From: Acidobacteriota bacterium
GTDB lineage: Bacteria > Acidobacteriota > UBA6911
NCBI GenBank assembly: GCA_963664705.1
Contig: OY761556.1
Span: 4,672,001 to 4,736,000, forward strand
Reading direction: 5' to 3'
DNA length: 64,000 nt
Below, piece by piece: positions 33,820-52,951 of the stretch. Position 1 is the stretch's first letter, and every line of letters starts with the position of its first letter. Below the pieces are notes generated by a model, which had not been told where the DNA came from, made no database searches, and worked only from the letters and a program-made list of their open reading frames with translations. A program made the position numbers and the translations under genes.

Positions 33820-33828
33820 GGAAATCAC

Positions 33829-34774: not shown

Positions 34775-34889
34775 CAATCTGAAAACCGGGAGCATCTCCA
34801 TCTCCCGGGAATTGGAAAGGGAGTCGCTCCCGGCAGTAGTTCCAGCCTGATTCCCTGCCGGGTCAGGCTGGAGTCCAAAAAACAAATCC

Positions 34890-34931
34890 TTGACCTGGAT
34901 CAATTACAGACCGGCGGATTGCATGAATAAT
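34890..34931 (+). promoter_or_regulatory. CRP/FNR-family box with class II promoter
   Basis: TTGACCTGGATCAA (34890-34903) and -10-like AATAAT (34926-34931). Confidence 0.65.
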
Positions 34932-34977
34932 GGAATCGATAGTGTGGACACAGCGGATGTTATGAAAGGAGCATTGC

Positions 34978-37353
34978 ATGGCTGATTTAGCTGGAGTAAA
35001 CGGAACCAGAAAAGATTTCAGGGTTGTCGGAAAGCCGAACCTTCCGGGAGTCCTGTCCTGGTCGCAGGCAACGGGTGCTGCAAGATTCGGAATTGACTAT
35101 GCCGTTCCAGACATGCTTCACGCCAAGTTTCTCCGCAGTCCTTATGCGAACGCGCGCATCAAGAGTCTCGACATCACAAAAGCCAAAGCCGTTCCAGGCG
35201 TTGTGGATATTGTTACCTGGGAAGACGAGGACATGAAGAAACTGAGCAGCGGTGGCGACGGCGGCTTTTTCATGGGACCCAGCCAGGCCTTCCTGGACAA
35301 TCTGGCCGATCAGGAAGGAGCCGAAGTGGGCGTTATCGTCGTGGCAGAAAATCCAGATATCTGCGATGAGGCGCTGCGGGCGCTCGTTGTGGAATGGGAA
35401 GAGTTGCCCTTTGTTGTGGACCTGCGCAAAGGACGAACCGCGGATGCGCCGGTCATCCGGCCGCCTTCGCCGGCCGGGAAAGGTGGCGGTGGATTTGGAA
35501 TGGGCGGAGGCAATAATCCTCCCAAGAAAGGCAATGTCAGTTATTCCAATACCAATGACGGCGATGTCGAAAAGGGTTTCAAGGAAGCGGACCACATCCT
35601 CGAATATGACGTGAACACCTCCGCCTTTGCCGGTCATATCCCCAATCCTCTGGGCACCGTTGCCTGGTGGTTCGATGATCCTCTGCACGGAGAAGGCAAA
35701 AGCCTCCAGATAGAAGGGGTTCCCTGGGGACATGATCAGGTTGCCGGCATGAACCGCGTGTCGCCCGACAAGGTTTTCCAGAACTGCATGTTCGTAGGCG
35801 GCCGGTACTGTGACTGGGGCATCCGCAAATCGCAGCAGATCACTCCGCTGCTCGCCAAAAGAGCCGGCCGACCCGTTCGATGCGTCAACACCAGGGCGGA
35901 TATGTACGATTTCAACCTGTGTCAGCGTTACGTGCATATGAAGATTGGATTCAAAAGCAACGGCCTGATTACGGCCATAGAAGATTTTTCAATTGCGGAT
36001 GGTGGGATCCGTGGAAGCTCGATGTTCGGGAATACGATGGATCAGACCTACGGGCCCTATTTCACCACCAAGTGCCTGAACGTCAAACAGAGCATGGAGG
36101 TCGTGGACAGCAACACAGGAATGATGTATGTCAGCGGCCAGCACAATCCCATGGGCTGGGATACACTGATGGTTGGCATCTATCTGATTGCCGAAAAGCT
36201 CGGCAAAGATCCGATCGAAATCGCGACGCTGAATCTGCACGGGCCGACATCTCAGACCGACACGAATCCCGTACCCAGCTATGAGGCCTGCGTTGCGGCT
36301 GTAAAAAAGATGATGAACTGGAACTGGCATCAGACGGGCGCCAAAAAGCTGCCGGACGGCCGTATGCACGGAGCCAGCTTCCGCTACAATCAGTGCCCGC
36401 GCCATTCCGTATCGGGATACAACCCCAAACTCGAACTCCGCAACGGCATCGTGCATCTGCCCTCCAAGGGTCCCATCATCGGCCACTATGGCCTGGAAGC
36501 CAATGCCATGGTCGTGGCGGAAGAACTTGGCCTGGAGTTCAAGGATATCCGCATTGATCTGGATCACCACGAAATCTACCGGCCGTTTGGCGGTGGCAGT
36601 GACGGATCCACGGCATCTTCCTGGGCGGTCAAAGAGTGCGCCAACAAACTGAAGAAGCTGATCCTGGAAACTGCCATCGAGGAGGCAAACAATCCTCCCG
36701 CTCCCGCCGGCTTCGGCATGGGTCCCGGCGCCAAACAGGCTCCCAATCCATTCAAGGGCCTGAAGCCTGAGGACCTCGATATGCAGGGCGGCAAGGTGAT
36801 TGTCAAAGCCGATCCAAGCAAAGGCCTGCCGCTGGCGCGCGCCGTCCAGGCGAATCTGTTCGCAACCTATGCGGGAAGACCTCCGCAAGCTCTCTGGGCT
36901 CAACGGGGAAAAGCATTGGACACAATGAACGTGGTTACATGCGAAGTGGCCGTGGACACGGAAACGGGAGAAGTGGAAATCACCCGGTTTGGTGTAGTCA
37001 CCGATACCGGAAAGGTCATGCGGCGGACATCGCTGGAAAGCCAGATCGATCAGGTGATGGATTTCACCAAGGGTTGCCAGCTTCAGGAAGAATTTATCTA
37101 CGATCAGAGGACTGGAGTAAAACTCAGCACGAATATGTTCGAGTACAAGAAAGTCAGTATGCTGGACATGCCTCGAGTGGATATGGAGCTTCTGGAAACG
37201 CGCGCCGGCAATGCCTGCTACGGGTCCAACGGCATCAGCCATTCTCTTGCCAGCACACATCTGGTCATCATGGCCATCCACAACGCGATCGGCAAGTGGG
37301 TGGAATCGCCGGCCACGCCGGACAGGGTGCTCAAAGCCCTGGGCAAGGCGTAG
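34978..37353 (+). CDS. Xanthine dehydrogenase/aldehyde oxidoreductase family molybdopterin-binding subunit (divergent)
   Basis: TGAARFGID..MLHAKFLRSPYANARI a/b hammerhead; EVAVDTETGEV; QIDQ..G; AIHNAIG..PATPDRVL C-terminus; AAAGGAG RBS. Confidence 0.9.
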   Translation: MADLAGVNGTRKDFRVVGKPNLPGVLSWSQATGAARFGIDYAVPDMLHAKFLRSPYANARIKSLDITKAKAVPGVVDIVTWEDEDMKKLSSGGDGGFFMGPSQAFLDNLADQEGAEVGVIVVAENPDICDEALRALVVEWEELPFVVDLRKGRTADAPVIRPPSPAGKGGGGFGMGGGNNPPKKGNVSYSNTNDGDVEKGFKEADHILEYDVNTSAFAGHIPNPLGTVAWWFDDPLHGEGKSLQIEGVPWGHDQVAGMNRVSPDKVFQNCMFVGGRYCDWGIRKSQQITPLLAKRAGRPVRCVNTRADMYDFNLCQRYVHMKIGFKSNGLITAIEDFSIADGGIRGSSMFGNTMDQTYGPYFTTKCLNVKQSMEVVDSNTGMMYVSGQHNPMGWDTLMVGIYLIAEKLGKDPIEIATLNLHGPTSQTDTNPVPSYEACVAAVKKMMNWNWHQTGAKKLPDGRMHGASFRYNQCPRHSVSGYNPKLELRNGIVHLPSKGPIIGHYGLEANAMVVAEELGLEFKDIRIDLDHHEIYRPFGGGSDGSTASSWAVKECANKLKKLILETAIEEANNPPAPAGFGMGPGAKQAPNPFKGLKPEDLDMQGGKVIVKADPSKGLPLARAVQANLFATYAGRPPQALWAQRGKALDTMNVVTCEVAVDTETGEVEITRFGVVTDTGKVMRRTSLESQIDQVMDFTKGCQLQEEFIYDQRTGVKLSTNMFEYKKVSMLDMPRVDMELLETRAGNACYGSNGISHSLASTHLVIMAIHNAIGKWVESPATPDRVLKALGKA

Positions 37354-37416
37354 GATGATTAAAAAAGCGCTGCGCTGGATCGGAGATTGAAGGTTCTAAG
37401 CCATTGGAGGCAGTGC

Positions 37417-38703
37417 ATGCCAGAGAGATCGGGTTCCAAACGAGTACGCCCTTTGATTATTGCAGCGGCATTATGTGTCCTGCTGTCTGGTACCAGGCCC
37501 ATGACATCCGCTGCCGCTCCTCCACAAGAGCAATCACCTGGTGGCTTCCCTCAGGGAACGGCAACACCATCAGAGGACTGCGGCAAATGCCACAGGGCAA
37601 TCTATCGTGAGTTTGCCTATGGTTTCGGCGCGGATCTGAAATTCGGTGGAATGGTTCTACAGTCATTAAGGGAAGACCAACTCTTCTTGCCTGGAAATTT
37701 TGCTCCTGGTGCGACGGCTCATTCCGTTGCCGGCGTTGATCCGTTTCCTATCCATGCTCGTGAAACAGAGTCCAAGGGACGATCCTGCAACGTCTGTCAC
37801 TATCCTCAGCCTTTTATGATACCATCGCTGGACTCTCCGGAAACCGCCAAGCCCGCCGCGCGCCCCAAGGACAAAGAAGCGGGCGGAATGACCTGTGCAA
37901 GTTGCCACTTAACTCCTGATGGAAAAATTCGAGGGCCGCATACCGTTAGTGCGCCTCATGCAACAGTGTCGGATGCCAATATACAAACTGCTGCCATGTG
38001 CGCCTATTGTCATAGTTCAGGAAAGCGTGTAAGCGGAAAACAGACGCAAACATTCTTCGAATGGCGTGAAGATTTCAACAAACCCGGCCTGGGTCCTCAG
38101 CATTGCCAAAACTGCCACATGCCCAAAACAGTCCGAAAAACCGCCGAGGCTTTTGATGTCCCCGATCGAGCCGTCTCCAGACACTTGTGGATCGGTGGAC
38201 ACGCACCGCAGCGACTCAAAAGTGCTCTCAACATGGTCCTTCTTCAGCCGGACAAGAACGGGGGAAATCTCGAGTTTCACATTATTAACCTCGGGGCAGG
38301 CCATTCAGTACCCACAGGGTCCAATCGACGGGGAATGTATCTGCGAGCAGAAGCCATTGATGCAAAGGGGAAAGTAATGGACAGACGCCAATGGCTGTTT
38401 GCGCCATGGTATGGAGATCGCCCGGATGACCGCAAATTTCTCGAGGAAGATAAAGGCCGAGACGATGCCACGGCGGCGATGCAGGCCGATGCACAAGGTC
38501 CGCATGAGAACATCATTCGCGCAGGCGAGGAGCGCATTCTCTCGTGGTCGCCGACGCTGAAGGCGGGCAGCTATACGATCAAGGCCCAGCTCGTCTACGA
38601 CCTGAACCGCTATAACGATCCCCAATATGCAGAGGATCAAACAGAACTTACTGTCACCTCATTGAACATGAAGATTGGCCTCGGAGCCGGCTCGGGCAAA
38701 TAA
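37417..38703 (+). CDS. Periplasmic pentaheme c-type cytochrome (c554/c552-like N-terminus, beta-rich C-terminus)
   Basis: Signal peptide; 5 CxxCH; AGHSVPTG motif; GGAGG RBS. Confidence 0.85.
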   Translation: MPERSGSKRVRPLIIAAALCVLLSGTRPMTSAAAPPQEQSPGGFPQGTATPSEDCGKCHRAIYREFAYGFGADLKFGGMVLQSLREDQLFLPGNFAPGATAHSVAGVDPFPIHARETESKGRSCNVCHYPQPFMIPSLDSPETAKPAARPKDKEAGGMTCASCHLTPDGKIRGPHTVSAPHATVSDANIQTAAMCAYCHSSGKRVSGKQTQTFFEWREDFNKPGLGPQHCQNCHMPKTVRKTAEAFDVPDRAVSRHLWIGGHAPQRLKSALNMVLLQPDKNGGNLEFHIINLGAGHSVPTGSNRRGMYLRAEAIDAKGKVMDRRQWLFAPWYGDRPDDRKFLEEDKGRDDATAAMQADAQGPHENIIRAGEERILSWSPTLKAGSYTIKAQLVYDLNRYNDPQYAEDQTELTVTSLNMKIGLGAGSGK

Positions 38704-38762: not shown

Positions 38763-39314
38763 TCAGAACCAGAATTCAGGGTATTTGCGCGTTTTCGGAA
38801 TGTTGTTCACCAGCAGCGCCACTGCGAGCATGATCATTGCGCCCAATGCGGTCGGGATAATTGGATAAAGGAATCCCAGGCTCTGGACTTTCTCGCCGCC
38901 GATAACGGCAATCAGGGCGGTAGCTCCTCCAGGTGGATGCAGTGTCCTGGTAATGTGCATCAATGCCAGCGCTGTGGCCACGGCAATTGCGGCGGCAATC
39001 CAAATGCATGGGTGAAACAGCTTGTACGATGCGACTCCGATAAATGCCGAAAGCACATGCCCCCCAACAAGATTCCTGGGCTGAGCCAAAGGGCTCTTGA
39101 TAGCACCATAGATCAGAATGGCGGAGGCGCCAAACGATCCAAGCATGAGGCCCATGGCTGAGCCCTCAAGAATGACGTAGTTCAGATAGCCCACGGCCGA
39201 GATCCCAAGAAAAGCGCCAATCCATGACCAGATGATTTCGGAAATACTCACACGGGGCGGCGTGCAGGAAACCGCGCGTAATTTGTTTAGCAATTTATTC
39301 TCAGCGAAAAGCAT
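38763..39314 (-). CDS. HPP-family membrane protein (putative nitrite transporter)
   Basis: SFGASAIL, PLAQPRN and LHPPGGA motifs; multiple TM segments. Confidence 0.92.
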   Translation of the reverse strand: MLFAENKLLNKLRAVSCTPPRVSISEIIWSWIGAFLGISAVGYLNYVILEGSAMGLMLGSFGASAILIYGAIKSPLAQPRNLVGGHVLSAFIGVASYKLFHPCIWIAAAIAVATALALMHITRTLHPPGGATALIAVIGGEKVQSLGFLYPIIPTALGAMIMLAVALLVNNIPKTRKYPEFWF

Positions 39315-39358
39315 ACGACGGCATCCTCAAGTGATATTGCGGATAGGAATGAGCGCTT

Positions 39359-39973
39359 CTAGAAAGATATGCGGACAATATCTGCGCGAGATACGATCCC
39401 GACAAGCCGCCCCTGCGAATCAACCACGGGAACCCGGTTGATTGCTTTCTCCGTCAGAATAGCGGTGATCTGCCGCAGCGTCGCCTGCTCATCCACCGTT
39501 ATTGCGGGAGACGTCATTATGTCGGCCGCTTTCCCATCCCGTATGGTCATCGCGATGCAGCAATGATTCCTGATGCAGTCGGCAATGACGCCCATCAGGC
39601 TCTTTGCCGTGCGATCTCCCATATGAGAACAGAAATCCTTTTCAGAGATAATCCCCTGAACCCTCATTTCCCTATCAATAACAGGAATTCCGGAAATTTC
39701 GTTTGCGGCTAATATCTCTGCCACCTCGCTGAGTGGAGTGTCCACCCGCACCGTAAAGACCTTTTGCGTCATCAGGTCGCGCGCCTTTACGGAGTTGGCA
39801 ATCCGATCCAGTGCATGTCTGAAGGAGTGGGAATAGATTTCCTTTAAATCAGCGGGAGTAATATCCAGATATCCCGGTATCTCCTTCATCGCCTCATAGA
39901 TGTCTGCATCACTGATTTCCGGCTGGAATAGCGACGATTTTGTTCCGCCATTATCATGCTTGGCTTTTGTCAC
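39359..39973 (-). CDS. CBS-domain protein of the type associated with HPP proteins
   Basis: YLDITPADL N-terminal motif plus a tandem CBS pair. Confidence 0.9.
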   Translation of the reverse strand: MTKAKHDNGGTKSSLFQPEISDADIYEAMKEIPGYLDITPADLKEIYSHSFRHALDRIANSVKARDLMTQKVFTVRVDTPLSEVAEILAANEISGIPVIDREMRVQGIISEKDFCSHMGDRTAKSLMGVIADCIRNHCCIAMTIRDGKAADIMTSPAITVDEQATLRQITAILTEKAINRVPVVDSQGRLVGIVSRADIVRISF

Positions 39974-40017
39974 GTTCGTCCAACCCTTATCTGTGCTTTA
40001 GTCATTGATCCTATCGC

Positions 40018-40602
40018 CTATCTTCCCTGGCATTGGATATTGTCCATTAGAGCCTTGCCGGCAAGCGAGAGATACCGGATACCACTTTCCTCCAGGATCC
40101 TGCTGAGCGGCTGGGCAATTGTCGAAAGGTGTCGCTGGATGAAGTTTTGGGACGCTTCGCAGGTCGTTTCAGCGTGCTCGGAATCGTCGCAGGCCAGAGC
40201 GTATGCCTCTTTGAGACGAAGGTATCCAATGAAACCTGCTTCTACGGACACATGATCGCATGCCTCGCGCGTTGCGGGGTCGTAGCCAAAGACCTTATAG
40301 TATCCGGCCAGTTCGGATATCAGGCTGCCCAATTCCACTCCCTTATGATAGCTCGCCTCGCGTGGAGATGCCGGGCCACCCGGACCAAACAGCGAGTGAT
40401 AAGAGGACGCAGAGGCTTCGGCCTGCGCAGCCTCCGTGGCGGATTTCAGATCAGCGTCCGGGACAAGGGAAGAAAGCGCCAGCAGACGCTCGTTCCATCC
40501 TTCGCCCGGTGATTCAAACAGCAGGCTGATCAGCCGCCATCGGGCGGAGTCCATAATCATTTCCTGCTGTCTGCTGTTGAAGGAATGTAATTGTGTGCTC
40601 AT
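40018..40602 (-). CDS. TorD/DmsD/NarJ-family molybdoenzyme chaperone
   Basis: EACDHVSVEAGF motif, FIQRHL; ATGA-coupled to the gamma subunit. Confidence 0.88.
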   Translation of the reverse strand: MSTQLHSFNSRQQEMIMDSARWRLISLLFESPGEGWNERLLALSSLVPDADLKSATEAAQAEASASSYHSLFGPGGPASPREASYHKGVELGSLISELAGYYKVFGYDPATREACDHVSVEAGFIGYLRLKEAYALACDDSEHAETTCEASQNFIQRHLSTIAQPLSRILEESGIRYLSLAGKALMDNIQCQGR

Positions 40603-41465
40603 TGCTGTTTTTGCCTCAACAACGGAATCCATCCCGTCCGCATTTTTCTGGAACCGATTTCCCCCTGGGAGCCTTCCCATACGGCAAACGCTGCCTGGGT
40701 TCGTAAACCGGGGCCAAGCCCCGACGGCAGACTGCGATTGATTACAACCTTCCACCCGTCCGTTGTCCTGATCCCTTTTCCCGCGGACCCGGCACGGACC
40801 TCAGGCTTCAATGTACCAGGCCCTTCCGCGAGGAGGTCTTCCACCGGCGTTTCCCTCGGCCCGTTTCGCATGTTCCCTGCCGCCCGCGCCGGCGCATAGC
40901 GCATTGCCATTTCCTTTTGGCTTGCGGAGCCTGCCCCCAGAGGCTGTGCCTGGAATGGATAGTGATCGACGGCAGCGTTGGGATATAAATCCCTGATGCT
41001 GTTGCCTCTTCCATCAACCCAGGCCTGCCAGTCCGCTCGCCAGAGGGTGAGTTCCACCGGACGGTTCGCCTCGCCCATCTGTGGTGACGGCGGTTCCTTT
41101 GCGATCGTTTTGGGAAGTTGTACCGCGCAGCCGTCGACGGAAACTCCAGGCCCTGGAGCATCATCTTTTCGCGGATCCAGCCATTGCAGCCGGAATGCTA
41201 TTCGGCTTCCATCTGTCATGGCTCGCACTCTGACTTCGCGGGTTGAAGCCTTCATCAGGCGTGGATCTGCAACATCCTGCAGAAGCAGACCTGCCGCGTA
41301 TTCGGGAAGCTGATCCCAGATTGGATCTCCGGGATCCGTCGAAAGAGCAGAGGCCGGAACCGCCACGACTTCGGTGGCCGCGGGCGGCACCGTGCGGCAA
41401 CCGGCGACGGTCAACAACACCGCCAGAACGGCAAGCGCGAGGCAACTGCGGAATACATGCCGCAT
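40599..41465 (-). CDS. Ethylbenzene-dehydrogenase-gamma/NxrC-like heme b subunit, predicted lipoprotein
   Basis: Lipobox TVAGC; FRLQWLD, DGCAVQ, QMG and AVWEG...RK motifs (candidate Met/Lys heme b ligands). Confidence 0.82.
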   Translation of the reverse strand: MRHVFRSCLALAVLAVLLTVAGCRTVPPAATEVVAVPASALSTDPGDPIWDQLPEYAAGLLLQDVADPRLMKASTREVRVRAMTDGSRIAFRLQWLDPRKDDAPGPGVSVDGCAVQLPKTIAKEPPSPQMGEANRPVELTLWRADWQAWVDGRGNSIRDLYPNAAVDHYPFQAQPLGAGSASQKEMAMRYAPARAAGNMRNGPRETPVEDLLAEGPGTLKPEVRAGSAGKGIRTTDGWKVVINRSLPSGLGPGLRTQAAFAVWEGSQGEIGSRKMRTGWIPLLRQKQQ

Positions 41466-41475
41466 GAAATCCTCC

Positions 41476-42603
41476 TTAAGGACAATTGGTGCGAATAATC
41501 TGATATTTCGAGTCATATGCGGCGCGAATGTGCACGGGTTCCGTTAGCGGTACGCGGACGAGTGCTGCGCCCTTTTCATCCATGCCCGTTACGGTCTCGC
41601 CTTGCCGGGCCCATCGATGAATGATGCTTTCGGTGGAACCAAAGAGGCAGAGCAGTCCTGCAAGGTCCGCGTCCTTAGCGGCGGATCGATATGTCTTTCG
41701 TGCCGCGTCCACCCCCGGACCGAACATCTGCTTCAGAAACGGCATAGACACATGCAGTGGCGGGATGTAATAGATGTTCGGCTCCAGGCCAAATTGCGGG
41801 AAGAGCGGAAGCGCAACCTTGCGAATGTGTACCAGGTAGTCGATGGGGTTGTCGGCACGCGCTTTCCCCGGCTCCGAAATGAACCCGGACATTCGGATCT
41901 TCCCGATGCAATTTACAAAACACTGCGGCTGGAGGCCCTGTTCCCGTTTCGGGTAGCATGCAATACATTTTTCTCCGGTGCCGGTCATCGGGTTGAAAAA
42001 CGATTTTTTGTAGGGACAGGCCCTCAGGCATTCCTGGTATCCGCGGCATCGCCCCTGATCCAGCAACACGATTCCGTCTTCAGGGCGTTTATAAATCGAG
42101 CCGCGCGGACAGCCGGCCAGGCAGGCCGGGTAGGTGCAGTGATTGCAGATGCGCGCCAGATAAAAGAACCAGTTCATGTGCGGCAGTGAAAAGGCAGCGC
42201 CTTTATCCACCTGGCCCGTGCAATCATCTTCGCCTGTGTTGGGATAGGCATAATCATCCGACGTCGGTTTCCATCCGAGGATCCGCTCCCCTGCGGGCGC
42301 CGCTTCAAAAATCGTCTGGCCTTCGTACCGGCTTCCCTGCCACTTCTGACTGCCCAGCGATTCAAGCAGTTTCACGTCCCACGCCAGCGGATAGCTGCCG
42401 TACGGCTTGCTTTCAACGTTGTTCCAGAGCATGTATTCCTGGCCCACACCGGAGGTCCAGGTCGTCTTGCACGCCAGGGTGCAGGTCTGACACGCGATGC
42501 ATTTGTTAATGTCAAAGATAGCGGCAAACTGCTTTTGAGGACGGCTTTCCGGATACCAGTAAGACATCTGCCTGCCAATCTGCCAATTGTTGACCCGAGC
42601 CAT
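41476..42603 (-). CDS. nxrB: Type II DMSO-reductase beta (FeS) subunit, NxrB/NarH-like
   Basis: [13 protein letters not shown]-terminus typical of periplasmic NxrB; [27 protein letters not shown] and CIAC cluster motifs. Confidence 0.85.
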
Positions 42604-42605
42604 GG

Positions 42606-45600
42606 TTATTCCTCCTTCGATCCGGTAATAAATTCCCCTGCCAGGTACCGGTTCATTGGCGAGGATTCATAGCGAGGCCGAATGCCGAGAGCTGCAGGCC
42701 GCCAAAGCCCCGTCTTATCAATTCCACCCGCTTCAGCTCGGGTGATTTTGACAATGGCTTCGCGGGGAGCCCCGGTCGGGCAATGCACATCCGGCAGGAA
42801 TCCTTTTCCGATGCCCTGCCCATACACTCCTTTTCTTACAAGTGAATCGGTCATCAGTGTCGGTTTGAGCCAGCCTCTCGTGGGCGACTGATGCGAGCCG
42901 GAGCGGAACATTGCCTGATAATTGGTCCTTGGGTTTTTGGCCAGACCATCCGCACGGTTTTTCTGACCCTCCACAGAGCCGGGCGTCGCACCATACATGT
43001 TGAACCACATGCGCGTGACACCTCGCGGCGTGCCCGGGTAATAGCGGGCGCGGCACAGGAGCCGGGCAAATTCCATATCACGCTTGTTATTCTGCCAGCC
43101 TCGGAAGGGCCGGTCTTCCGGATCGCCGTCAATCCAGACGTAATCGCCATCCTGTACTCCGAGTTCTCTGGCATCGGCCGGGTTGATATCCACATAACCC
43201 TCGGCCACGAAGGGACTGCGCTTGTCGCGTCGATAGACATCGCCAAACGGCCCAAAAAGAACCGCGATCATATCGGTATCGATAGGCGTGGTGTGGGCTC
43301 CGTGGCGAAACTTCGGCGTGTGGAATATGAATCGATATCCTTCCTGAATACGAGGGTGCGCGGATTTGCGCACTTCCTCCCAGGTCATAACCACATTCCT
43401 GCCGCAGCGCGTTTCGCACGAAAGGTCTGTGCGAGCCACGCCATAGGACTCCGGCCCGGCAGGTCGGATCGCTTCATGCCTGGGAGCGACAATCACATTG
43501 GGTTCATAGAAGGTGGAATCGACCGGTTCGCGATGAACAGGCAGGTTCTCGCCTGCCTCGATAAATTCATTTTCCTCCCGGTAAAACTCGAGTCGTCCGC
43601 TTTTGGTGTACCATGGCCGCGAATCCGCAATTTGCTCATACCCGACGGCCTTTGGCGTCGTCCGGCTATTCATCAGCGCGGGCACACCCTCCTTCGCTTT
43701 CGCTTCCAACTCGGCAAATTTGTATCCTTTCGTGTTGGTGGAGTGATCCAGCACGCGCTGGAGATAAACATCCGTGCGGCCTTCGCGAACAAACTTCCAG
43801 TAGTCATTGAAGCGATTGTCTCCGGTCAGCTCGGCCAGTTTCGAACCAACCAAGGCCAGGACCTCGATGTCTCCAATGGTATTGAAGATTCGCTTGAGCG
43901 GCGTTCGCGGAAAAACCTGGAGAAACGGATTCGTTACCGAAGCGGTCATATCGGGATGCTTGAGCTCTGACCATGAATCGACACCAAAGACAATATCCGC
44001 CCACTCGCAGGAGGTAGACCACCACCATTCATTGACCGCAACCATCTCAATGCGGGGAAGAACATTCACAACCGTGTTGTAATGCCATTTGACATTCCCC
44101 AGGATCGAGTTGGCGTTGGCAAACCACAACGACTTCGTAGGCGACGGCACATGTGTCGTCCCGGTGAGCACCTTTTTGCCGACGCGAAGAATGTGGTCCT
44201 CGTGGTTGTAATAGTGTGCGGATTCAGCCTTCCAGAGTTGGCGGGGGCGTGCCGGCTTCTGGGGATCCAATTCAATGTCAAAAGGATTTTCGTTGATGTA
44301 TTGCGGGGAGCCATTGAACAGTGAAACGCGATAATTGCCGGCATACGACCCGACATTCCCGCTGATCTTGCCCACATTCCCCGTAAGTGCAGCCAGTAGA
44401 AATATGTCCCGATCTTTGTTGTCGTTGTTGAAGAACTGATTGGGCCCCATGCCTATGGCAAAGAGCGTGGTCCCCGGCATTTTTGCGACATCGCGCGCAA
44501 GCGATTCCACGGCCTGCGCCGGAGCCCACGTCAGCTCCTCCACCGTTTTGGGGTCGAAATGCGCGGCATATTCACGCACCAGATCGAACACGGGCCGACA
44601 ACGGACCTTTTTTCCATCCGCCAGAGTTACTTCCACGGAACCATCCAGCCGCGCCTCCCCTACACCGGAGTTCTTGCCGACCATATCTCTGGTAAGAGGC
44701 TTGGGGGCACCGGACTTCATATCCCACCATACATAGTCTCCCCACTCGTCCCTGATTTTTTGCGGAACAATCATCTGGTCGTGAGTTTCGGGAGGAGGTT
44801 CTTTCTCTCCGGCTTTTAGTATTTTTGTGCTCTTCAATTCGGCGGAGGTCCCACCGAATACATCCTGAGCCCGCAGGTATTTCAATGTATCCATGCGAAC
44901 AAGAATCGGCAGATCCGTCCAGCGGCGAACATAATCCAGGTCATAGAGCTTCTCTCTCATGATGACGTGGGCAAGGCCGAGCGCGAGTGCCGGAGTGGTG
45001 CCGGGCCGAACGACAATCACATCGTCTCCCTTGCTCGCTGTAGCCGAGTATTCACAGGCAATAACCACAACCCGGACTCCCTTGAGCCGTGACTCCGTAA
45101 GCCAGTGGGCATCCGGCATTTTGGTGGCAATCCAGTTCATCCCCCATACCACAAGAGTCTTGCAGTGCTCTACCGCCGAAAGATCGAATTCAACCGTCTG
45201 CTGCCCGGTAACCATCGGGTGTCCCGGAGGCAAATCCGTATGCCAGGAATAATTGTCAAATCCCTTGCCCCCCTGTGCCGCGTCGGGACCGACCTTTCGA
45301 ATGTGCTCATCGAGCAGCGCGATTGAATTTGCCATTCGATACATGCCAAATACGCGGGTGATGCCCAGCAGAGGCATGCCGCCGCGGAATTTGAGCGCCT
45401 GTGTCCCAGCCCCTTTCATTGCGTCAATAGTCAGTTCATCGTAGTGCTGTGCTTTGAGTCTCCGCCTGCCTTCCTCCCCGCTGTAAGTCTGAGCAATGTT
45501 TTTGAGAGCAGCGGCCGCGATTTTGGCGGCTTCATCATGCGAGATCCGCACCCACTGATCCCGGCCGCGATTGAAGTATTTGCGCAACGGGAGCCCATCG

Positions 45601-46049
45601 CTTTCACGAGGAAACCCATCCTTGTACCATTGCTGGAATCCCGTGCGAACCATGCACTGGTTGACTCGGCGATCTCCATAGAACCTGCGCGTAAGAGCCA
45701 ACCCCTTTTGGCAGACACGCGGATCCCATCGGTTCGTAGTACGGTTTCCGGCAAGGTCGGTGGCCTCACCGTAGCGCATGGTCGGTCCAATACGGGTGAT
45801 AATCCCTTCGCGCACATAAGCATTGAGGATGCAGTTGTGTGTGTCATTGGGCGCGCACAGGAAAGTAAACTTCGAATCATATTTCCAAAGGTCCCGATAT
45901 ACGCGCTCCCAGCCGCGATCCGGATAGGAAGCCAGCGGGTTGGTGACGTTCTCGAGACCCCATGCCTCGCTGGCGGCGCTGACCAGTGCACCAAAGCCCA
46001 TGGCGGAAATCATCTCCAGGAATTCACGTCGCGGGATTTCACTTTTCAT
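42606..46049 (-). CDS. nxrA: Periplasmic nitrite oxidoreductase/nitrate reductase alpha subunit (Mo-bisPGD, type II DMSO-reductase family)
   Basis: Tat motif PRREFL; [15 protein letters not shown]; FS0 motif CAPNDTHNC...C; Mo-ligand region WHTDLPPG; 1147 aa. Reaction direction cannot be read from sequence. Confidence 0.85.
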
Positions 46050-47701
46050 TTGCTTCCTCCTGCCCAGGAACGGATGTAGGCAACGATTGTTTCGATTTCA
46101 GATGGCGCCAGAGTCATCCTGGCCGGAGAGGGATTCAAAAATCCTTCCATGCTTGTTCCGCGTCGTCCTTTGCTGATGGTTTCAACCAGGTAGGTGTCGG
46201 TTGCATTGGTCAGAAGAACTGAATTATTCAGCGCAGGGCCTTCGCCCCCTTTCCCATCCTTGCCATGACATAAGGAACACGCTGAAATGAAGAGGCGCTG
46301 GCCGGCCGCGGCATCGCCGACAGCCCAGCGCGGCGGTTTTGGATCAGGTCGTATCTCTCCGCCACCTATTTGCCGCAGGTAATGAATGGCCTGAAAAATC
46401 TCTTCCTGTCTCAACCCTCCGTCTTTCTTTCCCCACGCCGGCATTTTCCTGCCGGGACGCCCCTGGGTTACGGTCTCGGTCAGAAACCCGTCCGACACAA
46501 GCGGCAGAAAATCGGGACTTCCAATGGCCGGAAACGTCTGACGGCCGGGAGCCCGTCTCCCCTGCCCGCGGTTGCCGTGGCAGCCGGCGCAGAATGCACC
46601 AAAAACGGTGAGGCCATCCGAAGCAAATTCTCTCTCTCCGAATTTCTCAATCCTGAGTCGGTCTTTTGGCAGGTAGGACCCGGGAAGCTCGCGCCGCCTC
46701 AAGCTGAGCGTATACAGGGTGAGCAGTTCTAAATCCTCATCCGCAATCGCGACCTGCGGCATCAACGACCCGGCAACAACAGCCGCCGGGGACTGAAAGT
46801 GATTTACGAACCAATTCTCAAGCGAATGTTTGCCTTGTACATTGGCAAAAGCTACCTGTCCCGGATCCTTTTCTCCGACTCGAGTGAGGTCGGGGCCCTC
46901 ATCTCCTCCTGTCCCGCTGACTTTGTGGCAACCCAGGCAGCCGCTCGATAGGAACAGCGCTTTTGCTTCCATCAGCCTGGGCGCGCCCATTTGTGCGGCG
47001 AGGTAAACGGAAACCAGGGAGAGGTCCCGGGCATCGATTGGCGCAAAGGCGGTATGCCACGGACCGGATGCAGCGCCGGCAGATTTTTCGAGGTGTTTTC
47101 GATACCAGTCTTTGTCGTATCCGGAAATGGCCGTACGCGAAAGATCCGGTCCTTCCATGCCAAAGCCATCGGGCCGAAGAACGCCTCCCCGCGAATCTAC
47201 TCGATGACAGGCAAGGCAATCCAGCCGTTCAAACGCGCCTCTTGCCTCCCTGAATAATTCACGATTCGGGATGCCTGGAATCGCGTGACAGGTACCGCAT
47301 CCGGCCTGGCTGAGATTCCTGGGAATCATCGGCTCAGGCCAGAAGTGCACTTCACCATGGGCATCGAGCTTCTCGGTTGCAGCACCCTGTCCCCCATGGC
47401 AAATCGTGCAGCCGAAATCCGCCGGGTCATGGACAACCGCTTTGTGAGATGCCAGAACCCCATTCCCACGAATCCCCTGTTCACTGGGATCCATGCCCAC
47501 ATGACAGGAAATGCATCGGTCGCTTGTCCGGAGTCCCTGGCTGACCACCTGGCGAATACGAACCTTTATGGGGCCGTCCTCAGACGAAGTCGCTCGTTGG
47601 ATCCCGCACCACTCCATGAAGATATCCTGTGTTGCCGCAACAACCAGCAGCAGCAGGACTCCAACACTCGAAAAGAGCAGCAGGTATTTGTTCTTGTTCA
47701 T
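46046..47701 (-). CDS. Membrane-anchored heptaheme c-type cytochrome (c subunit of the Rieske/cyt b complex)
   Basis: N-terminal TM; 7 CxxCH; GPDL and MP motifs of class I c domains; its stop overlaps the nxrA start. Confidence 0.9.
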
Positions 47702-47708
47702 GGCAGTC

Positions 47709-49262
47709 TCAGTGAGTGGGCCATTGAGATGGAGACCAGTAAAAAACCCAATTCGGTCCACGGAAGTAAGTGCCGATCAGGGTCAACACCAGGAATCCGC
47801 AGAGAAAACAGGTAAACAGGCCGAGTGCGCCGGCTCGGGTAGATTGAAAGCGCCTTATAAGCCAAATGGAATAAAGCGCATACAGCAGCGTGAGAACGGA
47901 CCCCGGGTTGAGGAATGTTATCAACAGCTGGGGAGCATGGGAAAACCACTCACGGATCCAGCCAAACCGGATGGCAATGGCCTCGATTCCGATGGCAAGC
48001 GCCAGCCCATAGGCGACAGAACCCAGCACCAGCCTCGCTCCATTGGGTCCGGCAAACCATTGGCCAGTGCCATCCTGCTCCCGCTCCAGAAATGGAATAA
48101 GCCCAAGGCCAAGCAATACGATCGCCGGGATGCCGAATCCCCCCATAAAGGCAGAGAAGGAAACCATCTCCTGAAGGCCAAGGAAATACCACGGTGCCTT
48201 GGCGGGATTTTCGGGAACTGCAGGGTTCGCCATTTCCTTGAGAGGAGCATCCCATACAATGGACAGAGCGAGACAGAGAAAGACCGTTAGCATCAGCACC
48301 GCCAGTTCCGCATAAAAAACATGAGGCATGGCAGGGATTGTGTTTTCAGGCCCATTTCCTACAGCCGGAGTGCGACCGCGGACAATAGCCGCCAGGTGGT
48401 AGGTTCGGCTGGGTGCTTCCGAAAAGACGGGATAGGTGCCTTCAGGCAACGGACCTAATCTTTGATCCGCATCCGCGGGGCGTGCCAACCCTCCATCTTT
48501 TCGAATGCGCCAGAAGTGAACTCCCATTAGAGCCGCAAGTGCCAGGGGAAGAATCATCACATGAAGCAGGTAAAAGCGAATGAGCGCGACCGGACCCACC
48601 ACATCCGAGCCCAAAAGCAGAAGACGCTGCATCTCGCCTGGATCAAACCATCCGGTAATTCCCAAGGCGTCCGTGACTTCTCTTGGGGACTGGGCAATAT
48701 TGGTGCCGATCGTAATTGCCCAATAAGCCAATTGGTCCCAGGGAAGCAGATATCCCGTGAACGACAATGCCAGCGTCACGACCAGCAGTCCCATGCCAAT
48801 CAGCCAGTTGAATTCCCTTGGCTTCCGATATGCCGCGGTAAAAAAGGTCCGAGCCATGTGGAGCAGTACCGCAATGACCATAATGTTCGCGGACCAGCGG
48901 TGAAGATTTCTTATGAATCTCCCGGTCGGCACAATGAAGTGGATGTCCTTGATCGACTGGTATGCAGCATCTGGGTAGGGCTTGTAGTAAAACATCAGAA
49001 GCACACCGGTCACAAACGCAATCAGGAAGGCGGCAGTACTGGCAATTCCGAATCCCAAAGTGGTGGTCCATCGGAGAGTCCACCGATGAACTCGCGTAGA
49101 GTGCAAATGCAGGAAGAGATTGCCAAATATGAAACTGGACCTGGTCCGGTCGGTAACAGGCTTTCCGCTTCGGAAGGCTGCCTCGATGATGCGCCGCGGC
49201 GTGGCCTTGAGATTATTCCAGATTTCGCTGAGGGCATTTACTGGCGGAGAGGTGGCGTTCAT
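47709..49262 (-). CDS. Cytochrome b of a Rieske/cyt b complex (b6 and subunit IV fused)
   Basis: [24 protein letters not shown] and VHF heme ligands; APWYF at the PEWY position. Confidence 0.93.
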
Positions 49263-49744
49263 AGCAGCACCTTCGTTCCGGCGGGAACGGTGGCGCCCTG
49301 ATCAACCAGCACTTTTCCCCCGGCCGCACTCACTTTGAGCCATGCCAGCGGTTTCGGCGCCGGACCTTTGGTCACGGATCCATCCGCAGCAAAACGAGAA
49401 CCGTGGCACGGACATTCAAATCCTTCTGCATTAATTTTTACAATGCAGCCAAGATGAGTACAGACCGTGGTGACAGCCCACGTCCCTTCCGAATCGCGGA
49501 ACAGCGCCACGGAGCGTCCCGGCGGCGAAAACGCCTGACCCGGCTGCAGCGCGTCGGGAAGGGCTACGCTGAATCGCTTGGAGGGAGCGGACAATATTGC
49601 GGCTTTGGGCAGACGTGCCATACCCAGGATGGCGAGGAAAAATGCTGTCCCCGCCGCCCAAAGAGACATGAGTCCAAGCATATCTCTTCTCGGTATTGGT
49701 TCCGGATCCAGACGTGAGTGGGCGGCTTTCGGTGTGGTGGTCAT
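49259..49744 (-). CDS. Rieske [2Fe-2S] protein
   Basis: Tat-like PRRDML plus TM; CTHLGC and CPCHGSRF boxes; 4-nt overlaps with both neighbours. Confidence 0.94.
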
Positions 49745-51654
49745 GCGGACCTCCAATGAGCGGAAAAAACAACGCGTTCCATCGTAATCGCTTGTACCGG
49801 GCAACGGGCGACGCACAGCGCACACCGAATGCAGCGGTCTTCATCCTTCAGAATTGCGGAATTCTGCGAACGATCGGCATCAGGGCCTAGCAGGCTCTCC
49901 GTCATGGCATCCAGTTCGCTATCGTCGGAGAGCTGATCCATCGGCGTCAGCTTAAGGCACTGTGTTGGACAAACTTCCGCGCAGCCTCCGCAGAGCACAC
50001 ATCGGCTTCCATCAAACACAGGGGTCACGCCGCAATCAAGGCACCGGGAGGCCTCTTTGACAGCCTGCGGCTGCGTGTATCCCGTCTCCACAACAGTATC
50101 GGGGTGCATCATTCTTGCTTCCGGCAGGGCGATGGGAACAGGAGTGCGGCGCAGCGATTCATAGCCGTATTCACGCCGATAGCCTTCCTGAACAACGTGG
50201 CGGGTCAGGATTTCCGAATATAGCCTTCGTCCTGTGACATATTCATAGACAGAGCGGGCTGCAGCTTTCCCGGAAGCGACAGCATCGATCAACAATCGTG
50301 TCCCGTGTGCCAGATCACCGGCAACGAAAACACCCGGCGCGGTCGTAGCCAGGGTCGAGGGATTGATCCTGGGCCAACCGGGCCGATCCATCCCGACATC
50401 CGCACCTCCGTCATCGAGGAAAGACAGCATCGGTGTTTGGCCCACTGCAAGCAGCACCGTATCGCAGGAAATCGTTGCACGCTGGCTGTCGTCAAATACA
50501 GGGCTGAAGCGATGCTCGCTGTCGTACACTCTGACACACTTGCGAAAGACTACACCGGTCGGCAAGCCGGATTCGTTACGCTGAATCTCAACCGGTCCCC
50601 AACCATTCAAGCGCTCGATTCCCTCTTCATCTCCTTCAAGAATTTCAGCCGTATCGGCCGGCATTTCCTCCAGACCTTCAAGAGAAACCAGCCGGACTAA
50701 AGCCGTGGAGGCGAACCGCGCCGCGGTTCGTGCCGTATCGTACGCAATCTGTCGAAGAACGGTCCGGGCAACATCATAGGCAACGTTGCCGCCTCCGATC
50801 ACGACAACCTCTCTGCCGATCTCAAACGGAAGGTCCAAAGCCACGGCTCTTAAAAGATCTACGCCTCCAAACACGCCCGGCCCATGTTCTCCCGGAAGTC
50901 CAAGCCCACGCGATGACTTGGCACCAACCGCGATGATGACTGCCGAAAAATCTCTGCGTAAATCAGCAAAGCGGATATCGCTCCCAACTGTAATGCCGCA
51001 TCGGATGTCGACGCCCAAAGCCCGGATAACATCCACTTCCCGGGCTATCACAGCCGGAGGGAGGCGATAGCCGGGAACTCCCAACGCGAGCATGCCCGCA
51101 GGAATTCTTTCAGTTTCAAAAACGATCGGCCTGAAATTCAGCAGGGCCAGATCATGGGCTGCAGAAAGTCCGGCCGGTCCCGCCCCGATGATTGCTATCT
51201 TCTCGCCTGAGCCCGGTTTGATTTTCCCATCCAGGCCGGCCCGCAGCAGGCTCGCCATCTCTTCAGCATCGCCACAGACCGGAATCCCATGGAGTTGCGT
51301 CTGCCGCAGAACATCTTCACGAGACCCAGCCTTCATTCCAGCATGAGAACATGCAAAGCCTTTTAGTGCGCGGATCGAGAGGGGCCGATCGTTGGCCACA
51401 AAATGTCCGTCATCGTCGACACGCGGCACCTGTCCGCGACGGCAAGCCGCTTCGCAGGGCGCACCGCAAATCCGCCCGCAAATCGAGGCAAATGGATTCG
51501 GACCGCGCGCAATCCAATAGGCCTCCTCAATCCGTCCTTCGGCAATGGCGCGTACATAGCCCCGCGCATCCGTATGAACCGGGCATGCCACCTGGCAGGA
51601 AATCAGATCCCGATGATAGTTGTCTCCTGGAAGATGCGCCTTTAGTTTGGGCAT
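49741..51654 (-). CDS. Cytoplasmic FAD/[4Fe-4S] NAD(P)H oxidoreductase (GltD/NfnB/DsrL-like architecture)
   Basis: N-terminal CQVACP and [13 protein letters not shown] clusters; GAGPAG and GGGNVA dinucleotide motifs; C-terminal [12 protein letters not shown] and [12 protein letters not shown] ferredoxin pair; no signal peptide. Confidence 0.9.
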
Positions 51655-51765: not shown

Positions 51766-51807
51766 AAAATAAGCCAACTCGCCTGTCGTGTAATTGATCT
51801 GAATCAA
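51766..51807 (-). promoter_or_regulatory. Perfect FNR-consensus box with class II promoter for the bc-NXR operon
   Basis: TTGATCTGAATCAA at 51794-51807; minus-strand -10-like TATTTT at 51771-51766 at -41.5 spacing; about 140 bp upstream of ATG 51654. Confidence 0.75.
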
Positions 51808-52102: not shown

Positions 52103-52951
52103 ATGGTTCGTGCAATTGCAACGCTAGTCCTTATGTTCAGCATTGCATCCTTGCAGGCCGAGGCTGCGGGATGCACGCGCGCAAGCCTGCAGGGCGCCGT
52201 CAACAAATACCTGAATGCTCTGAAAAAGGGAAAGCCGTCAAAGATGCCGCTCGCCCCTCAGGCAAAGTACATCGAAAATCGGAAGGAAATCCCATTGGGG
52301 CAGGGCATCTGGCGTTCCCCGCTAGCAATCGATTTTGACCGCACCATGGCACTGGACGTAGACATCTGCGAGAGCTTTACAGAAATTATCACCGCCAAGA
52401 CTAAGCCGCAGTATGTCATCGGAACGAGATTGAAGGTCGCCAATGGTAAAATTGCGGAAATTGAAAGCCTCGTCAGTGCCAAAGACGACTGGGGCTTTGA
52501 TGCCGACAGCTATCTGAAATACTCCTCGATAGAAAAATGGGACATTATTGCCTCCGATAAGCGCACCGATCGTCCGACACTAACCAAAGTTGCCAGCGAT
52601 TACTTCGACATTTTCCAGGATTACTCTGCCTTCGACAAAATACCCTGGGGTATTCCTTGCGTCCGAATTGAAGGCGGCATGTATACGAATCCCAATAATG
52701 ATCCTAAACCGTCCTGTACACTGGGAGTTCCCAAAGGGGGCGGTGTCCCGATGACAAACCGTCGCTACATCGTCGATGTGGATCTGGGAACCGTTGTCGG
52801 CCAGGTGGATTTCGGAGGCCCCAAAGGTTTGTGGGATGCACACACTTTCCGGCTTGAGAACGGAAAGCTTCGTTACGTGCACGTGATTACGCTGTGCCCC
52901 GGCGGCTGCCCGAAAATTCCTATGCCCAAGGATGGTCGGCCCCCGCAATAA
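52103..52951 (+). CDS. Hypothetical exported protein
   Basis: Signal peptide, GGAGG RBS, 282-aa ORF with normal composition and several Cys. Confidence 0.75.
   Translation: MVRAIATLVLMFSIASLQAEAAGCTRASLQGAVNKYLNALKKGKPSKMPLAPQAKYIENRKEIPLGQGIWRSPLAIDFDRTMALDVDICESFTEIITAKTKPQYVIGTRLKVANGKIAEIESLVSAKDDWGFDADSYLKYSSIEKWDIIASDKRTDRPTLTKVASDYFDIFQDYSAFDKIPWGIPCVRIEGGMYTNPNNDPKPSCTLGVPKGGGVPMTNRRYIVDVDLGTVVGQVDFGGPKGLWDAHTFRLENGKLRYVHVITLCPGGCPKIPMPKDGRPPQ

What the first reader, a model, noticed from the sequence alone, without database searches (positions are those of the whole stretch)
38763..51654. Single operon joining a cytoplasmic NAD(P)H flavoprotein and a Rieske/cyt b complex to a periplasmic NXR-like molybdoenzyme
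Seen: ten co-directional genes with 4-nt overlaps or very short gaps across the eight redox genes. The order is FAD/FeS oxidoreductase, Rieske, cyt b, heptaheme c, alpha, beta, gamma, chaperone, CBS, HPP. Known: Rieske/cyt b clusters carrying an NAD(P)-oxidoreductase subunit are described in anammox bacteria, and haloarchaeal periplasmic Nar operons include Rieske and cyt b genes. Inference: here both features are combined in one transcription unit. That suggests a supercomplex in which quinol oxidation at the bc Qo site sends one electron via the heptaheme wire to periplasmic nitrate reduction. The other electron would go, via cyt b and the ferredoxin/FAD subunit, to or from NAD(P)H. This would be an electron-bifurcating or confurcating nitrate/nitrite respiratory module. 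It is my best candidate for an undescribed system in this window.
Basis: partly seen in the sequence, partly recalled or inferred. Interest (0 to 1): 0.88.

Follow-up and report, generated by a model that had tools for sequence, protein, structure and literature searches.

The report
Quinol-splitting periplasmic nitrate respiration operon
Eight tightly packed genes, found in the same order in many groups of bacteria, likely build a respiratory chain that passes one electron from membrane quinol to nitrate outside the cell and is predicted to send the other to NAD inside it, a long-proposed but untested way of splitting electrons.

Summary
The genes and their order are real. An eight-gene core (flavoprotein, Rieske, cytochrome b, heptaheme c, alpha, beta, gamma, chaperone) is conserved: upstream half in 52 of 53 relatives with room, downstream half in 60 of 60. 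CBS/HPP are a local add-on (0 of 53). Alpha is a periplasmic Asp-ligated molybdoenzyme of the sister lineage to anammox NXR. Nitrate reduction is the likely direction. Support: a perfect FNR-type box upstream, host NrfAH/qNOR without NarG/NapA, and the same upstream module paired elsewhere with cbb3 oxidase. The flavoprotein has the anammox-type lysine cluster and looks NAD-specific and non-bifurcating, so any bifurcation would sit at Qo. Cytochrome b lacks the heme ci cysteine. Electron flow to NAD+ is my best reading (0.45); NADH input is the main rival. It is not undescribed: Rieske-cyt b-cyt c next to narG was noted in Thermogutta terrifontis (2017), and NAD(P)-linked bc complexes are known from anammox. 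I found no paper on the full cassette or its mechanism in ten searches. Binding and co-transcription stay untested. The scan found this cassette before in several other genomes.

The parts
51794..51807 (.). Perfect FNR/Crp-family palindrome TTGAT-N4-ATCAA, 153 nt upstream of the flavoprotein ATG; likely anoxia/NO-responsive operator
   Evidence: 1 match in window, 0.08 expected by shuffle; related palindromes upstream in 21 of 52 relatives vs about 1% of shuffles (pattern set after seeing near-misses); consensus recalled
49741..51654 (-). Cytoplasmic GltD/NfnL-fold FAD flavoprotein, 637 aa, four predicted Fe-S clusters (proximal 3Cys+Lys98, C-terminal 2x[4Fe-4S]); predicted NAD(H)-specific
   Evidence: no TM helix
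49259..49744 (-). Rieske [2Fe-2S] protein with RR motif and one TM helix, Ser/Phe (mid-high potential) type
47709..49262 (-). Fused cytochrome b (b6 + subunit IV), 8 predicted TM helices, APWY Qo motif, four heme b His, no CxGG, conserved N-terminal His52/54/59
46046..47701 (-). Membrane-anchored heptaheme cytochrome c (three clustered hemes plus four class I-like domains)
42606..46049 (-). Tat-exported Mo-bisPGD alpha subunit, FS0 Cys65/Asp69/Cys73/Cys113, Asn68, Mo ligand Asp272, Y-4x-D-11x-QT
41476..42603 (-). Beta subunit, 15 invariant ligand Cys (3x[4Fe-4S] + [3Fe-4S])
40599..41465 (-). Gamma subunit, EB_dh heme b protein with Met130/Lys274 ligands and predicted lipobox (Cys23)
40018..40602 (-). 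TorD/NarJ-family chaperone
39359..39973 (-). CBS-pair protein; local add-on, not in the conserved unit
   Evidence: 0 of 53 relatives
38763..39314 (-). HPP-family 4-TM protein, possible nitrite transporter; local add-on
   Evidence: 0 of 53 relatives; family role from PMC7438415 passage

Best explanation
The eight conserved genes likely encode an anoxia-induced menaquinol:nitrate respiratory chain in which quinol oxidation at the cytochrome b Qo site would send one electron through the Rieske protein, heptaheme cytochrome and gamma/beta subunits to periplasmic nitrate reduction, and is predicted to send the other across the membrane through the b hemes and four Fe-S clusters to FAD and NAD+. 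Shown: gene content, order, conservation and cofactor motifs. Inferred with fair confidence (about 0.8): nitrate as substrate and the reducing direction; nitrite would then go to ammonium through the host NrfAH. Inferred with less confidence: that the flavoprotein docks on cytochrome b, and that the low-potential electron makes NADH instead of re-reducing quinone.
For: Conservation: 52 of 53 and 60 of 60 loci. In 301 phylum genomes, all 25 with a cyt b at 71% identity or more carry the alpha, 23 of them adjacent on one contig. Nitrate-type active site: Asn68, FS0 Asp69 and Mo Asp272 match Kuenenia Asn70/Asp71/Asp275. The Mo-site motif is in 84 of 84 clade rows and QT in 79 of 84. Reducing direction: related flavoprotein/Rieske/cyt b/multiheme modules with the same APWY motif sit with cbb3 oxidase genes in L118-L120 and with a pNarG-like DMSO_red_II enzyme in L108/L109. 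The host has MqnA/D, NrfAH and qNOR, with no second type II enzyme or NapA seen among 12 molybdopterin hits and no RuBisCO found. Canonical narG is in only 1 of 28 carrier genomes. There is an FNR-type box here, the same box upstream of host hcp and a 1-mismatch box upstream of qNOR. RIC, Rrf2, Crp/Fnr, YwiC and MoaA genes lie nearby in 20, 17, 16, 13 and 13 of 84 loci (no background control). T. terrifontis, a nitrate-respiring isolate, has the same seven-gene order. NAD branch: a Lys at the FAD-proximal cluster as in Kuste4570/Kustd1483 and in non-bifurcating StnC. No heme ci Cys in 61 of 61 rows, and Arg/Lys where bc1 has its Qi His (bc1 numbering recalled). Conserved N-terminal His and R252/R254/K255, like the predicted extra heme site in the anammox models. 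Ser/Phe Rieske (about 200-260 mV; the Ser/Phe Kustd1480 measured +335 mV). Net driving force +0.08 to +0.18 V per quinol for NAD. A diheme resembling c7 residues 358-545 is fused to gamma in 10 of 10 anammox-like loci (25-34% identity).
Against: No member has been assayed. Kao and Hunte read APWY as a mark of reverse-running complexes (PMC4122944), and Suarez et al. read the wider clade as NXR (PMC10732223). The sister lineage contains a true nitrite oxidizer, Nitrotoga. A heterotroph respiring nitrate has little obvious need to make NADH. The subunit IV His314/Glu319 pair near Qi is conserved (62 and 63 of 63), so a working Qi site is not excluded. The FNR box is absent as a perfect match in all 52 relatives, and the looser pattern was set post hoc in partly related genomes. 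Class I heme domains resemble each other generally, which weakens the fusion argument. T. terrifontis expressed the genes in microaerobic cultures whose described medium lists no nitrate, and I could not confirm that its THTE_1513 is the flavoprotein or that its alpha is in this exact clade.
Confidence: 0.45

Rival explanations
1. Same nitrate-reducing chain, but the flavoprotein oxidises NADH and feeds electrons into cytochrome b on the cytoplasmic side. One NADH electron and one b-chain electron reduce quinone at Qi, giving a self-contained NADH:nitrate oxidoreductase that bypasses complex I.
For: The hosts look heterotrophic, where NADH is the surplus. The flavoprotein looks NAD-specific (55 of 56 rows). 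The His314/Glu319 pair is kept. Downhill at every step.
Against: It yields about 2 charges per nitrate against about 6 via complex I plus Q-cycle (recalled stoichiometries); the host has NuoF and NuoH genes. Hauser et al. reject this direction for the anammox homologues on the same ground. No heme ci Cys.
Confidence: 0.22
2. An ordinary Q-cycle bc complex feeds the periplasmic nitrate reductase; the flavoprotein is only loosely attached or an overflow route.
For: The haloarchaeal Rieske/cytb-Nar model works without such a subunit (PMC3509893). The flavoprotein gene moves position in cbb3-linked loci.
Against: The flavoprotein is kept in 52 of 53 loci at about 62-75% identity (45% in L096), with a 4-nt overlap here and invariant cluster Cys. 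In Kuenenia, complexes containing both cyt b and the oxidoreductase are reported as highly expressed (de Almeida 2016, as cited in PMC5600118).
Confidence: 0.13
3. The molybdoenzyme reduces another oxyanion (chlorate, perchlorate, selenate, N- or S-oxide) with the same wiring.
For: Type II DMSO reductases are promiscuous (established knowledge). Castelle et al. list the motif-matched Beggiatoa and Natrinema proteins as of unknown function. Several pocket residues differ from Kuenenia.
Against: Asn68, Asp272 and QT are kept. Characterised members of the sister lineage use nitrate or nitrite. Neighbours and operator point to nitrogen oxides.
Confidence: 0.12
4. The system runs in reverse as a nitrite oxidoreductase with reverse electron transport through the bc complex.
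For: NXR-type alpha; Nitrotoga NXR is in the sister lineage; Kuenenia NXR is bidirectional; APWY was proposed as a reverse-mode motif; the host has an A-type oxidase with ACIII.
Against: Reverse Qo turnover with nitrite would consume, not make, NADH and is uphill (-0.11 V at 0.15 V pmf). APWY modules also sit with cbb3 oxidase. Anoxia-type operator; NrfAH in the host and in 4 of 5 near carriers; no RuBisCO found (other fixation routes not searched).
Confidence: 0.08

Closest known systems
Thermogutta terrifontis THTE_1512-1506 (Elcheninov et al. 2017, PMC5673643; passages and supplement rows)
   Same: Order Rieske, cyt b, cyt c, deep-lineage narG, narH, third subunit, TorD chaperone; complex III proposed to serve nitrate growth; NrfAH to ammonium.
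   Different: The paper calls the enzyme cytoplasmic, mentions no flavoprotein (THTE_1513 appears unnamed in the RNA table) and gives no mechanism. Sequence identity to this window was not tested.
Kuenenia stuttgartiensis Rieske/cyt b complexes Kuste4569-4574 and Kustd1480-1485 (Hauser et al. 2025, PMC12954380; Dibrova et al. 2017 subfamily G, PMC5600118; Kao and Hunte APWY clade, PMC4122944)
   Same: Rieske + cyt b + multiheme c + NfnL-like NAD(P) oxidoreductase with a Lys at the proximal cluster; P-WY Qo motif; Ser-type Rieske; candidate extra heme His.
   Different: Kuenenia cyt b is split with CMGG heme ci; here it is fused and lacks the Cys. The high-potential sink there is an HAO-like protein or unknown; here it is a co-encoded Mo enzyme. 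Hosts are mostly non-anammox bacteria.
Kuenenia NXR-ABC (PDB 7B04; Chicano et al. 2021, PMC8387239)
   Same: Best PDB hit (E 7e-253); Tat alpha, 3Cys/Asp FS0, Asn, Asp-Mo, Met/Lys heme b gamma.
   Different: Separate lineage; lipoprotein gamma; no NXR-T seen; linked to a bc module, whereas 10 of 10 anammox-like loci fetched lack one.
Sister lineage of periplasmic NXR/NAR: Ca. Nitrotoga fabula NXR, Hydrogenobacter thermophilus pNAR, Beggiatoa and Natrinema 'UnkA' (PMC6050957; PMC3903129 supplement)
   Same: FS0 and Mo-site motifs match the Beggiatoa protein almost letter for letter.
   Different: Nitrotoga has QM and no complex III. Deeper members (Natronococcus L107 49%, G222 59%) lack the bc module.
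Haloarchaeal Rieske/cytb-Nar cluster (PMC3509893)
   Same: Periplasm-facing nitrate reductase fed by a Rieske/cyt b complex.
   Different: PDWF-type cyt b of another subfamily; the passages read describe no NAD-linked flavoprotein or heptaheme cytochrome there; the model is itself mainly bioinformatic.

Membership tests
Type II DMSO reductase, periplasmic NXR/NAR | Tat signal on alpha; FS0 3Cys+Asp; Asp Mo ligand; substrate Asn | tested here: met
   RREFL at residue 7; C65/D69/C73/C113, N68, D272 align to Kuenenia
Type II DMSO reductase, periplasmic NXR/NAR | Beta with four Fe-S clusters; Met/Lys heme b gamma; TorD chaperone | tested here: met
   15 ligand Cys 74 of 74; M130 74 of 74, K274 73 of 73
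Type II DMSO reductase, periplasmic NXR/NAR | Nitrate/nitrite turnover | not testable with these tools
   needs enzyme assay
Anammox/Nitrospira NXR clade | Alpha groups with the anammox-like sequences | tested here: not met
   Separate branches, SH-aLRT 99/100, quick tree of 33 rows without named references; motifs differ
Nitrotoga/Hydrogenobacter/Beggiatoa sister lineage | Phylogenetic placement with named members | tested here: inconclusive
Canonical cytoplasmic NarGHI | TIGR01580 above cut-off, no Tat signal, NarI diheme anchor | tested here: not met
   131 bits vs cut-off 1084; Tat motif and EB_dh gamma instead
Rieske/cyt b complex (APWY clade, Dibrova subfamily G) | Rieske CxH/CxxH motifs, four heme b His, P-WY Qo motif | tested here: met
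   CTHLGC 60 of 60; His 121/135/234/249 63 of 63; KAPWY 63 of 63
Dibrova clade G' (large operons of unknown function) | WLGT or GLGG at the cn site | tested here: not met
   G(L/F)G(I/L/V) in 61 of 61 rows vs Fig. S1 text; fits the long cyt b part of G; operon drawings of the figure could not be seen
Anammox NAD(P)-linked Rieske/cyt b (Kuste4569-74 type) | Co-encoded NfnL-like oxidoreductase with Lys at proximal cluster and four clusters | tested here: met
Anammox NAD(P)-linked Rieske/cyt b (Kuste4569-74 type) | Split cyt b with CxGG heme ci | tested here: not met
   fused and no Cys; the split variants L110-L112 have YLGG, also no Cys
Anammox NAD(P)-linked Rieske/cyt b (Kuste4569-74 type) | Flavoprotein physically part of the complex; NAD(P)+ reduction by bifurcation | not testable with these tools
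   needs purification and assay
Flavin-bifurcating NfnB | Glu-ligated proximal cluster and NfnA partner | tested here: not met
   Lys98 in place of Glu, as in non-bifurcating StnC (position matched by motif); no NfnA in the operon

The most novel reading that the evidence does not exclude
A widespread 'extended Q-cycle': the complex has given up quinone reduction at Qi and uses nitrate to lift every second quinol electron to NAD+, which complex I then re-oxidises, so that up to about 6 charges instead of 2 are moved per nitrate (budget 1.0 eV vs 0.72-1.08 eV cost). The flavoprotein-Rieske-cyt b-multiheme unit would be a swappable bifurcating front end, plugged into nitrate reductases of two lineages and into cbb3 oxidase, with a natural NADP-specific variant (L096).
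Probability: 0.3. Interest if true: 0.85.

Novelty: new variant of a known kind. Interest (0 to 1): 0.62.

Why it matters
Quinol-driven NAD(P)+ reduction by a Rieske/cyt b complex has been proposed for anammox bacteria but not shown, and anammox cells lack genetic tools (PMC8387239). This cassette supplies the same module with its high-potential acceptor in one operon and a simple substrate, so the idea becomes testable, possibly in a cultured nitrate reducer. It also matters for the nitrogen cycle: 29 of 301 genomes of the host phylum carry this alpha lineage, and it scores far below the narG cut-off while resembling NXR, so surveys can miss it or count its carriers as nitrite oxidizers.

Tried and rejected
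Complex prediction (heptaheme residues 240-551 with gamma, alignments A1/A2) was not available: nothing was folded, so there is no verdict. RNA runs: no RNA holder listed. The sigma-70/terminator scan gave no more sites than shuffles and none informative on the minus strand between the genes. Rejected: CBS/HPP as core parts (0 of 53); membership of Dibrova clade G'; membership of the anammox/Nitrospira clade; flavin-based bifurcation at the FAD; the longer TTG/GTG starts given by the ORF list for flavoprotein, Rieske, cyt c, gamma and chaperone. A strict FNR consensus is not conserved in relatives (0 of 52 with at most 1 mismatch within 300 nt). NirK was not found above cut-off in the host. 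Plasmid search gave only 4 records, none with the cassette in the one region opened. Protein search with cyt b gave 7882 hits but no cultured names among the 120 listed. The careful alpha tree did not finish; the quick tree was used. Ten paper searches found no paper on the full eight-gene cassette; subscription papers (Kartal 2013, Dibrova 2013, ten Brink 2013, de Almeida 2016, Kameya 2017, Martinez-Espinosa 2007) were seen only as citations. PMC6037941, PMC6995999 and PMC12758564 passages added little.

Full report
Observation. Using the most plausible starts, the junctions are -4, -4, +7, -4, +2, +10, -4, +44 and +44 nt. The eight redox genes are therefore tightly coupled and CBS/HPP more loosely attached. 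The window lies in a one-contig 6.9 Mb genome. The closest named alpha (90%) is from an Acidobacteria MAG, so the host is likely Acidobacteriota (inference).

Conservation. A scan of GTDB genomes with alpha found 517 related stretches; only the best 80 were returned (72-90% identity; Acidobacteriota, Planctomycetota, Binatia, Myxococcales, Zixibacteria, Eisenbacteria and others). Of these 80, 53 had room upstream and 52 hold flavoprotein-Rieske-cyt b-heptaheme in order; the exception, L097, has an N gap just before a truncated alpha. 60 had room downstream and all 60 hold beta-gamma-chaperone. CBS and HPP were in 0 of 53 loci with 5.5 kb or more downstream. In 301 genomes of the phylum, 43 matched alpha: 29 at 59% or more (host included) and 14 at 40-42%. 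All 25 genomes with a cyt b at 71% or more are among the 29; 23 have both on one contig within a few kb, and two have them on separate contigs (18 weak matches were not listed). Three more (L110-L112) have the same order with a split cyt b. One (G222, 59%) shows no bc genes in the 5.7 kb upstream, and G094 looks degraded. Kin and near-duplicate loci are not independent, so these counts show conservation, not a statistical test.

The molybdoenzyme. The best PDB hit is Kuenenia NxrA (E 7e-253). Asn68, FS0 Asp69 and Mo-ligand Asp272 match Asn70, Asp71 and Asp275 (PMC8387239, parts 1-2 of 9 read). The motifs are those of the Beggiatoa/Natrinema 'UnkA' proteins (PMC3903129 supplement passages) and differ from the anammox-like rows. 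A quick tree of 33 rows puts the bc-linked alphas on one side of a branch (SH-aLRT 97) and the 8 anammox-like ones apart (100); no named NXR reference was in the tree. Kitzinger et al. describe this sister lineage as mostly uncharacterised, with Nitrotoga NXR (QM) and Hydrogenobacter pNAR (PMC6050957 passages). Ours has Y-4x-D-11x-QT in 79 of 84 clade rows and QS in 5. Beta keeps 15 ligand Cys; gamma keeps Met/Lys heme ligands and has a lipobox, so the trimer is likely tethered on the periplasmic face.

The bc module. Cyt b is fused, with 8 predicted helices, four heme His and KAPWY in 63 of 63 rows, and no CxGG in 61 of 61. It fits the long-cyt b part of Dibrova subfamily G, not clade G' (PMC5600118 parts 2-3 and Fig. 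S1 text). The operon drawings of that figure are not held, and its legend lists molybdopterin, EB_dh and Nar delta domains, so a related operon may be drawn there. His52/54/59 and R252/R254/K255 are conserved, like the His and Arg/Lys of the extra heme predicted for the anammox complexes (PMC12954380 part 1 and passages). The Rieske is Ser/Phe type. The flavoprotein is NfnL/GltD-like with a Lys at the FAD-proximal cluster (53 of 53 rows displayed of 56), as reported for Kuste4570 and the non-bifurcating StnC (PMC10482914 passages). 55 of 56 rows have GGGNVA(Y/F)D, and the 39 rows displayed have an acidic xLE where NADP-binding homologues have basic residues. One planctomycete locus, L096, has the YRR form. 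NAD specificity is an inference from this.

Direction. Related upstream modules, all APWY, are paired with a pNarG-like DMSO_red_II enzyme (L108, L109) and with cbb3 oxidase genes (L118-L120). An oxygen reductase is a sink, so the periplasmic arm likely carries electrons away from quinol; this weakens the reverse-mode reading of APWY (PMC4122944 passages). The host has futalosine menaquinone genes, NrfAH and qNOR in one locus, ACIII with an A-type oxidase, NuoH and NuoF, and only this cyt b and this type II enzyme by tblastn. No NapA was recognised among the molybdopterin hits by inspection of N-termini, and RuBisCO and NirK were not found. Only 1 of 28 carrier genomes has canonical narG above cut-off (base rate not measured), and 4 of 5 near carriers have NrfA. 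A perfect FNR-type palindrome lies 153 nt upstream (1 found, 0.08 expected). It is one of 18 in the genome, another lying upstream of a Prismane-family (hcp) gene, with a 1-mismatch copy upstream of qNOR. A looser palindrome, defined after seeing near-misses, is upstream in 21 of 52 relatives against about 1% of shuffles. Neighbour genes in 84 loci include RIC (20), Rrf2 (17), Crp/Fnr (16), YwiC (13) and MoaA (13). In 10 of 10 anammox-like loci, which lack the bc module, a diheme resembling the last heme domains of the heptaheme is fused to gamma, a modest hint that these domains are gamma's partner.

Mechanism. Inferred path: menaquinol at Qo; first electron to Rieske, hemes c, gamma heme b, beta clusters, FS0, Mo, nitrate; second electron to bL, bH, possibly an extra heme, four Fe-S clusters, FAD, NAD+. 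With menaquinone -74 mV, nitrate +430 mV (recalled), NAD -320 or -280 mV and an assumed pmf of 0.12-0.18 V, the net is +0.08 to +0.18 V per quinol; reverse nitrite oxidation is -0.11 V. The sequence cannot fix the direction of the NAD branch; NADH input to Qi remains the main rival, as His314/Glu319 are kept.

Prior art. Elcheninov et al. 2017 report complex III genes THTE_1512-1510 directly beside a deep-lineage narG operon THTE_1509-1506 in Thermogutta terrifontis and suggest a role in nitrate growth (PMC5673643 passages). The supplement names Rieske, cyt b and cyt c1 in the same order and lists THTE_1513 with RNA counts but no name. Haloarchaeal Rieske/cytb-Nar clusters (PMC3509893 passages) and anammox NAD(P)-linked complexes are in print. 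Suarez et al. treat the wider clade as putative NXR (PMC10732223 passages). Ten searches found no paper on the eight-gene cassette with its flavoprotein; the library lacks most subscription journals. Earlier notes of this scan describe the same cassette in other genomes; one gave the lead to planctomycetes.

Verdict. Real, widespread, partly noticed and not characterised: a new variant of known kinds. Interest 0.62, because it makes the anammox bifurcation proposal testable; binding, co-transcription and direction are open.

Noticed in passing
L118:2598-11257, L119:5514-13498, L120:5760-13734: Rieske-cyt b (APWY)-heptaheme c-ccoN-ccoO-flavoprotein clusters: the same NAD-linked bc module joined to a cbb3-type oxidase; ccoN/ccoO checked by profile in L118 only.
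   Followed up: partly
L109:6145-16033 and L108:2-7980: Flavoprotein-Rieske-cyt b-hexaheme c joined to a different, pNarG/PcrA-like 921-aa type II enzyme (TIGR03479 above cut-off): an independent pairing of the module with a molybdoenzyme.
   Followed up: partly
L096:1444-3408: Flavoprotein with an NADP-type site (GGGDAAMD, YRR) and a divergent upstream module (40-53%) in front of a 76% alpha: probable module swap.
   Followed up: partly
L110:4809-16679, L111, L112: Same operon with split cyt b (YLGG, no heme ci Cys) and 7 or 8 hemes; these alphas form a sister branch.
   Followed up: partly
L121-L126, L022-L025: Anammox-like NXR alphas in the host's phylum with a diheme c-gamma fusion and no bc module; 14 of 301 genomes have such alphas.
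   Followed up: partly
L079:13448-13945 and L089:15979-16485: Pyrinomonadaceae-type loci insert a small membrane-like ORF (no Pfam hit) between alpha and beta and a hemerythrin-looking ORF (no Pfam hit) between gamma and chaperone.
   Followed up: no
L127:6377-10689 (G094): Apparently degraded copy: truncated alpha, beta missing, heptaheme broken.
   Followed up: no
window 30571-38703 (+): Opposite-strand block: 1032-aa multiheme cytochrome with repeats, small multiheme protein (34190-34774), xanthine-dehydrogenase-family Mo subunit (34978-37353) and a multiheme cytochrome (37387-38703) ending 59 nt from the HPP stop.
   Followed up: no
window 52103-52951 (+): Divergent 282-aa secreted-looking ORF without Pfam or NCBIfam hit that shares the intergenic region holding the FNR-type box.
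   Followed up: no
G000:C1:4304637-4312819 and C1:3139091-3140829: Host qNOR, hemerythrin-like gene and nrfAH in one locus; hcp-like Prismane gene behind a perfect FNR-type box.
   Followed up: partly
window 11002-13446 (-): Pyruvate formate lyase-like glycyl radical enzyme.
   Followed up: no
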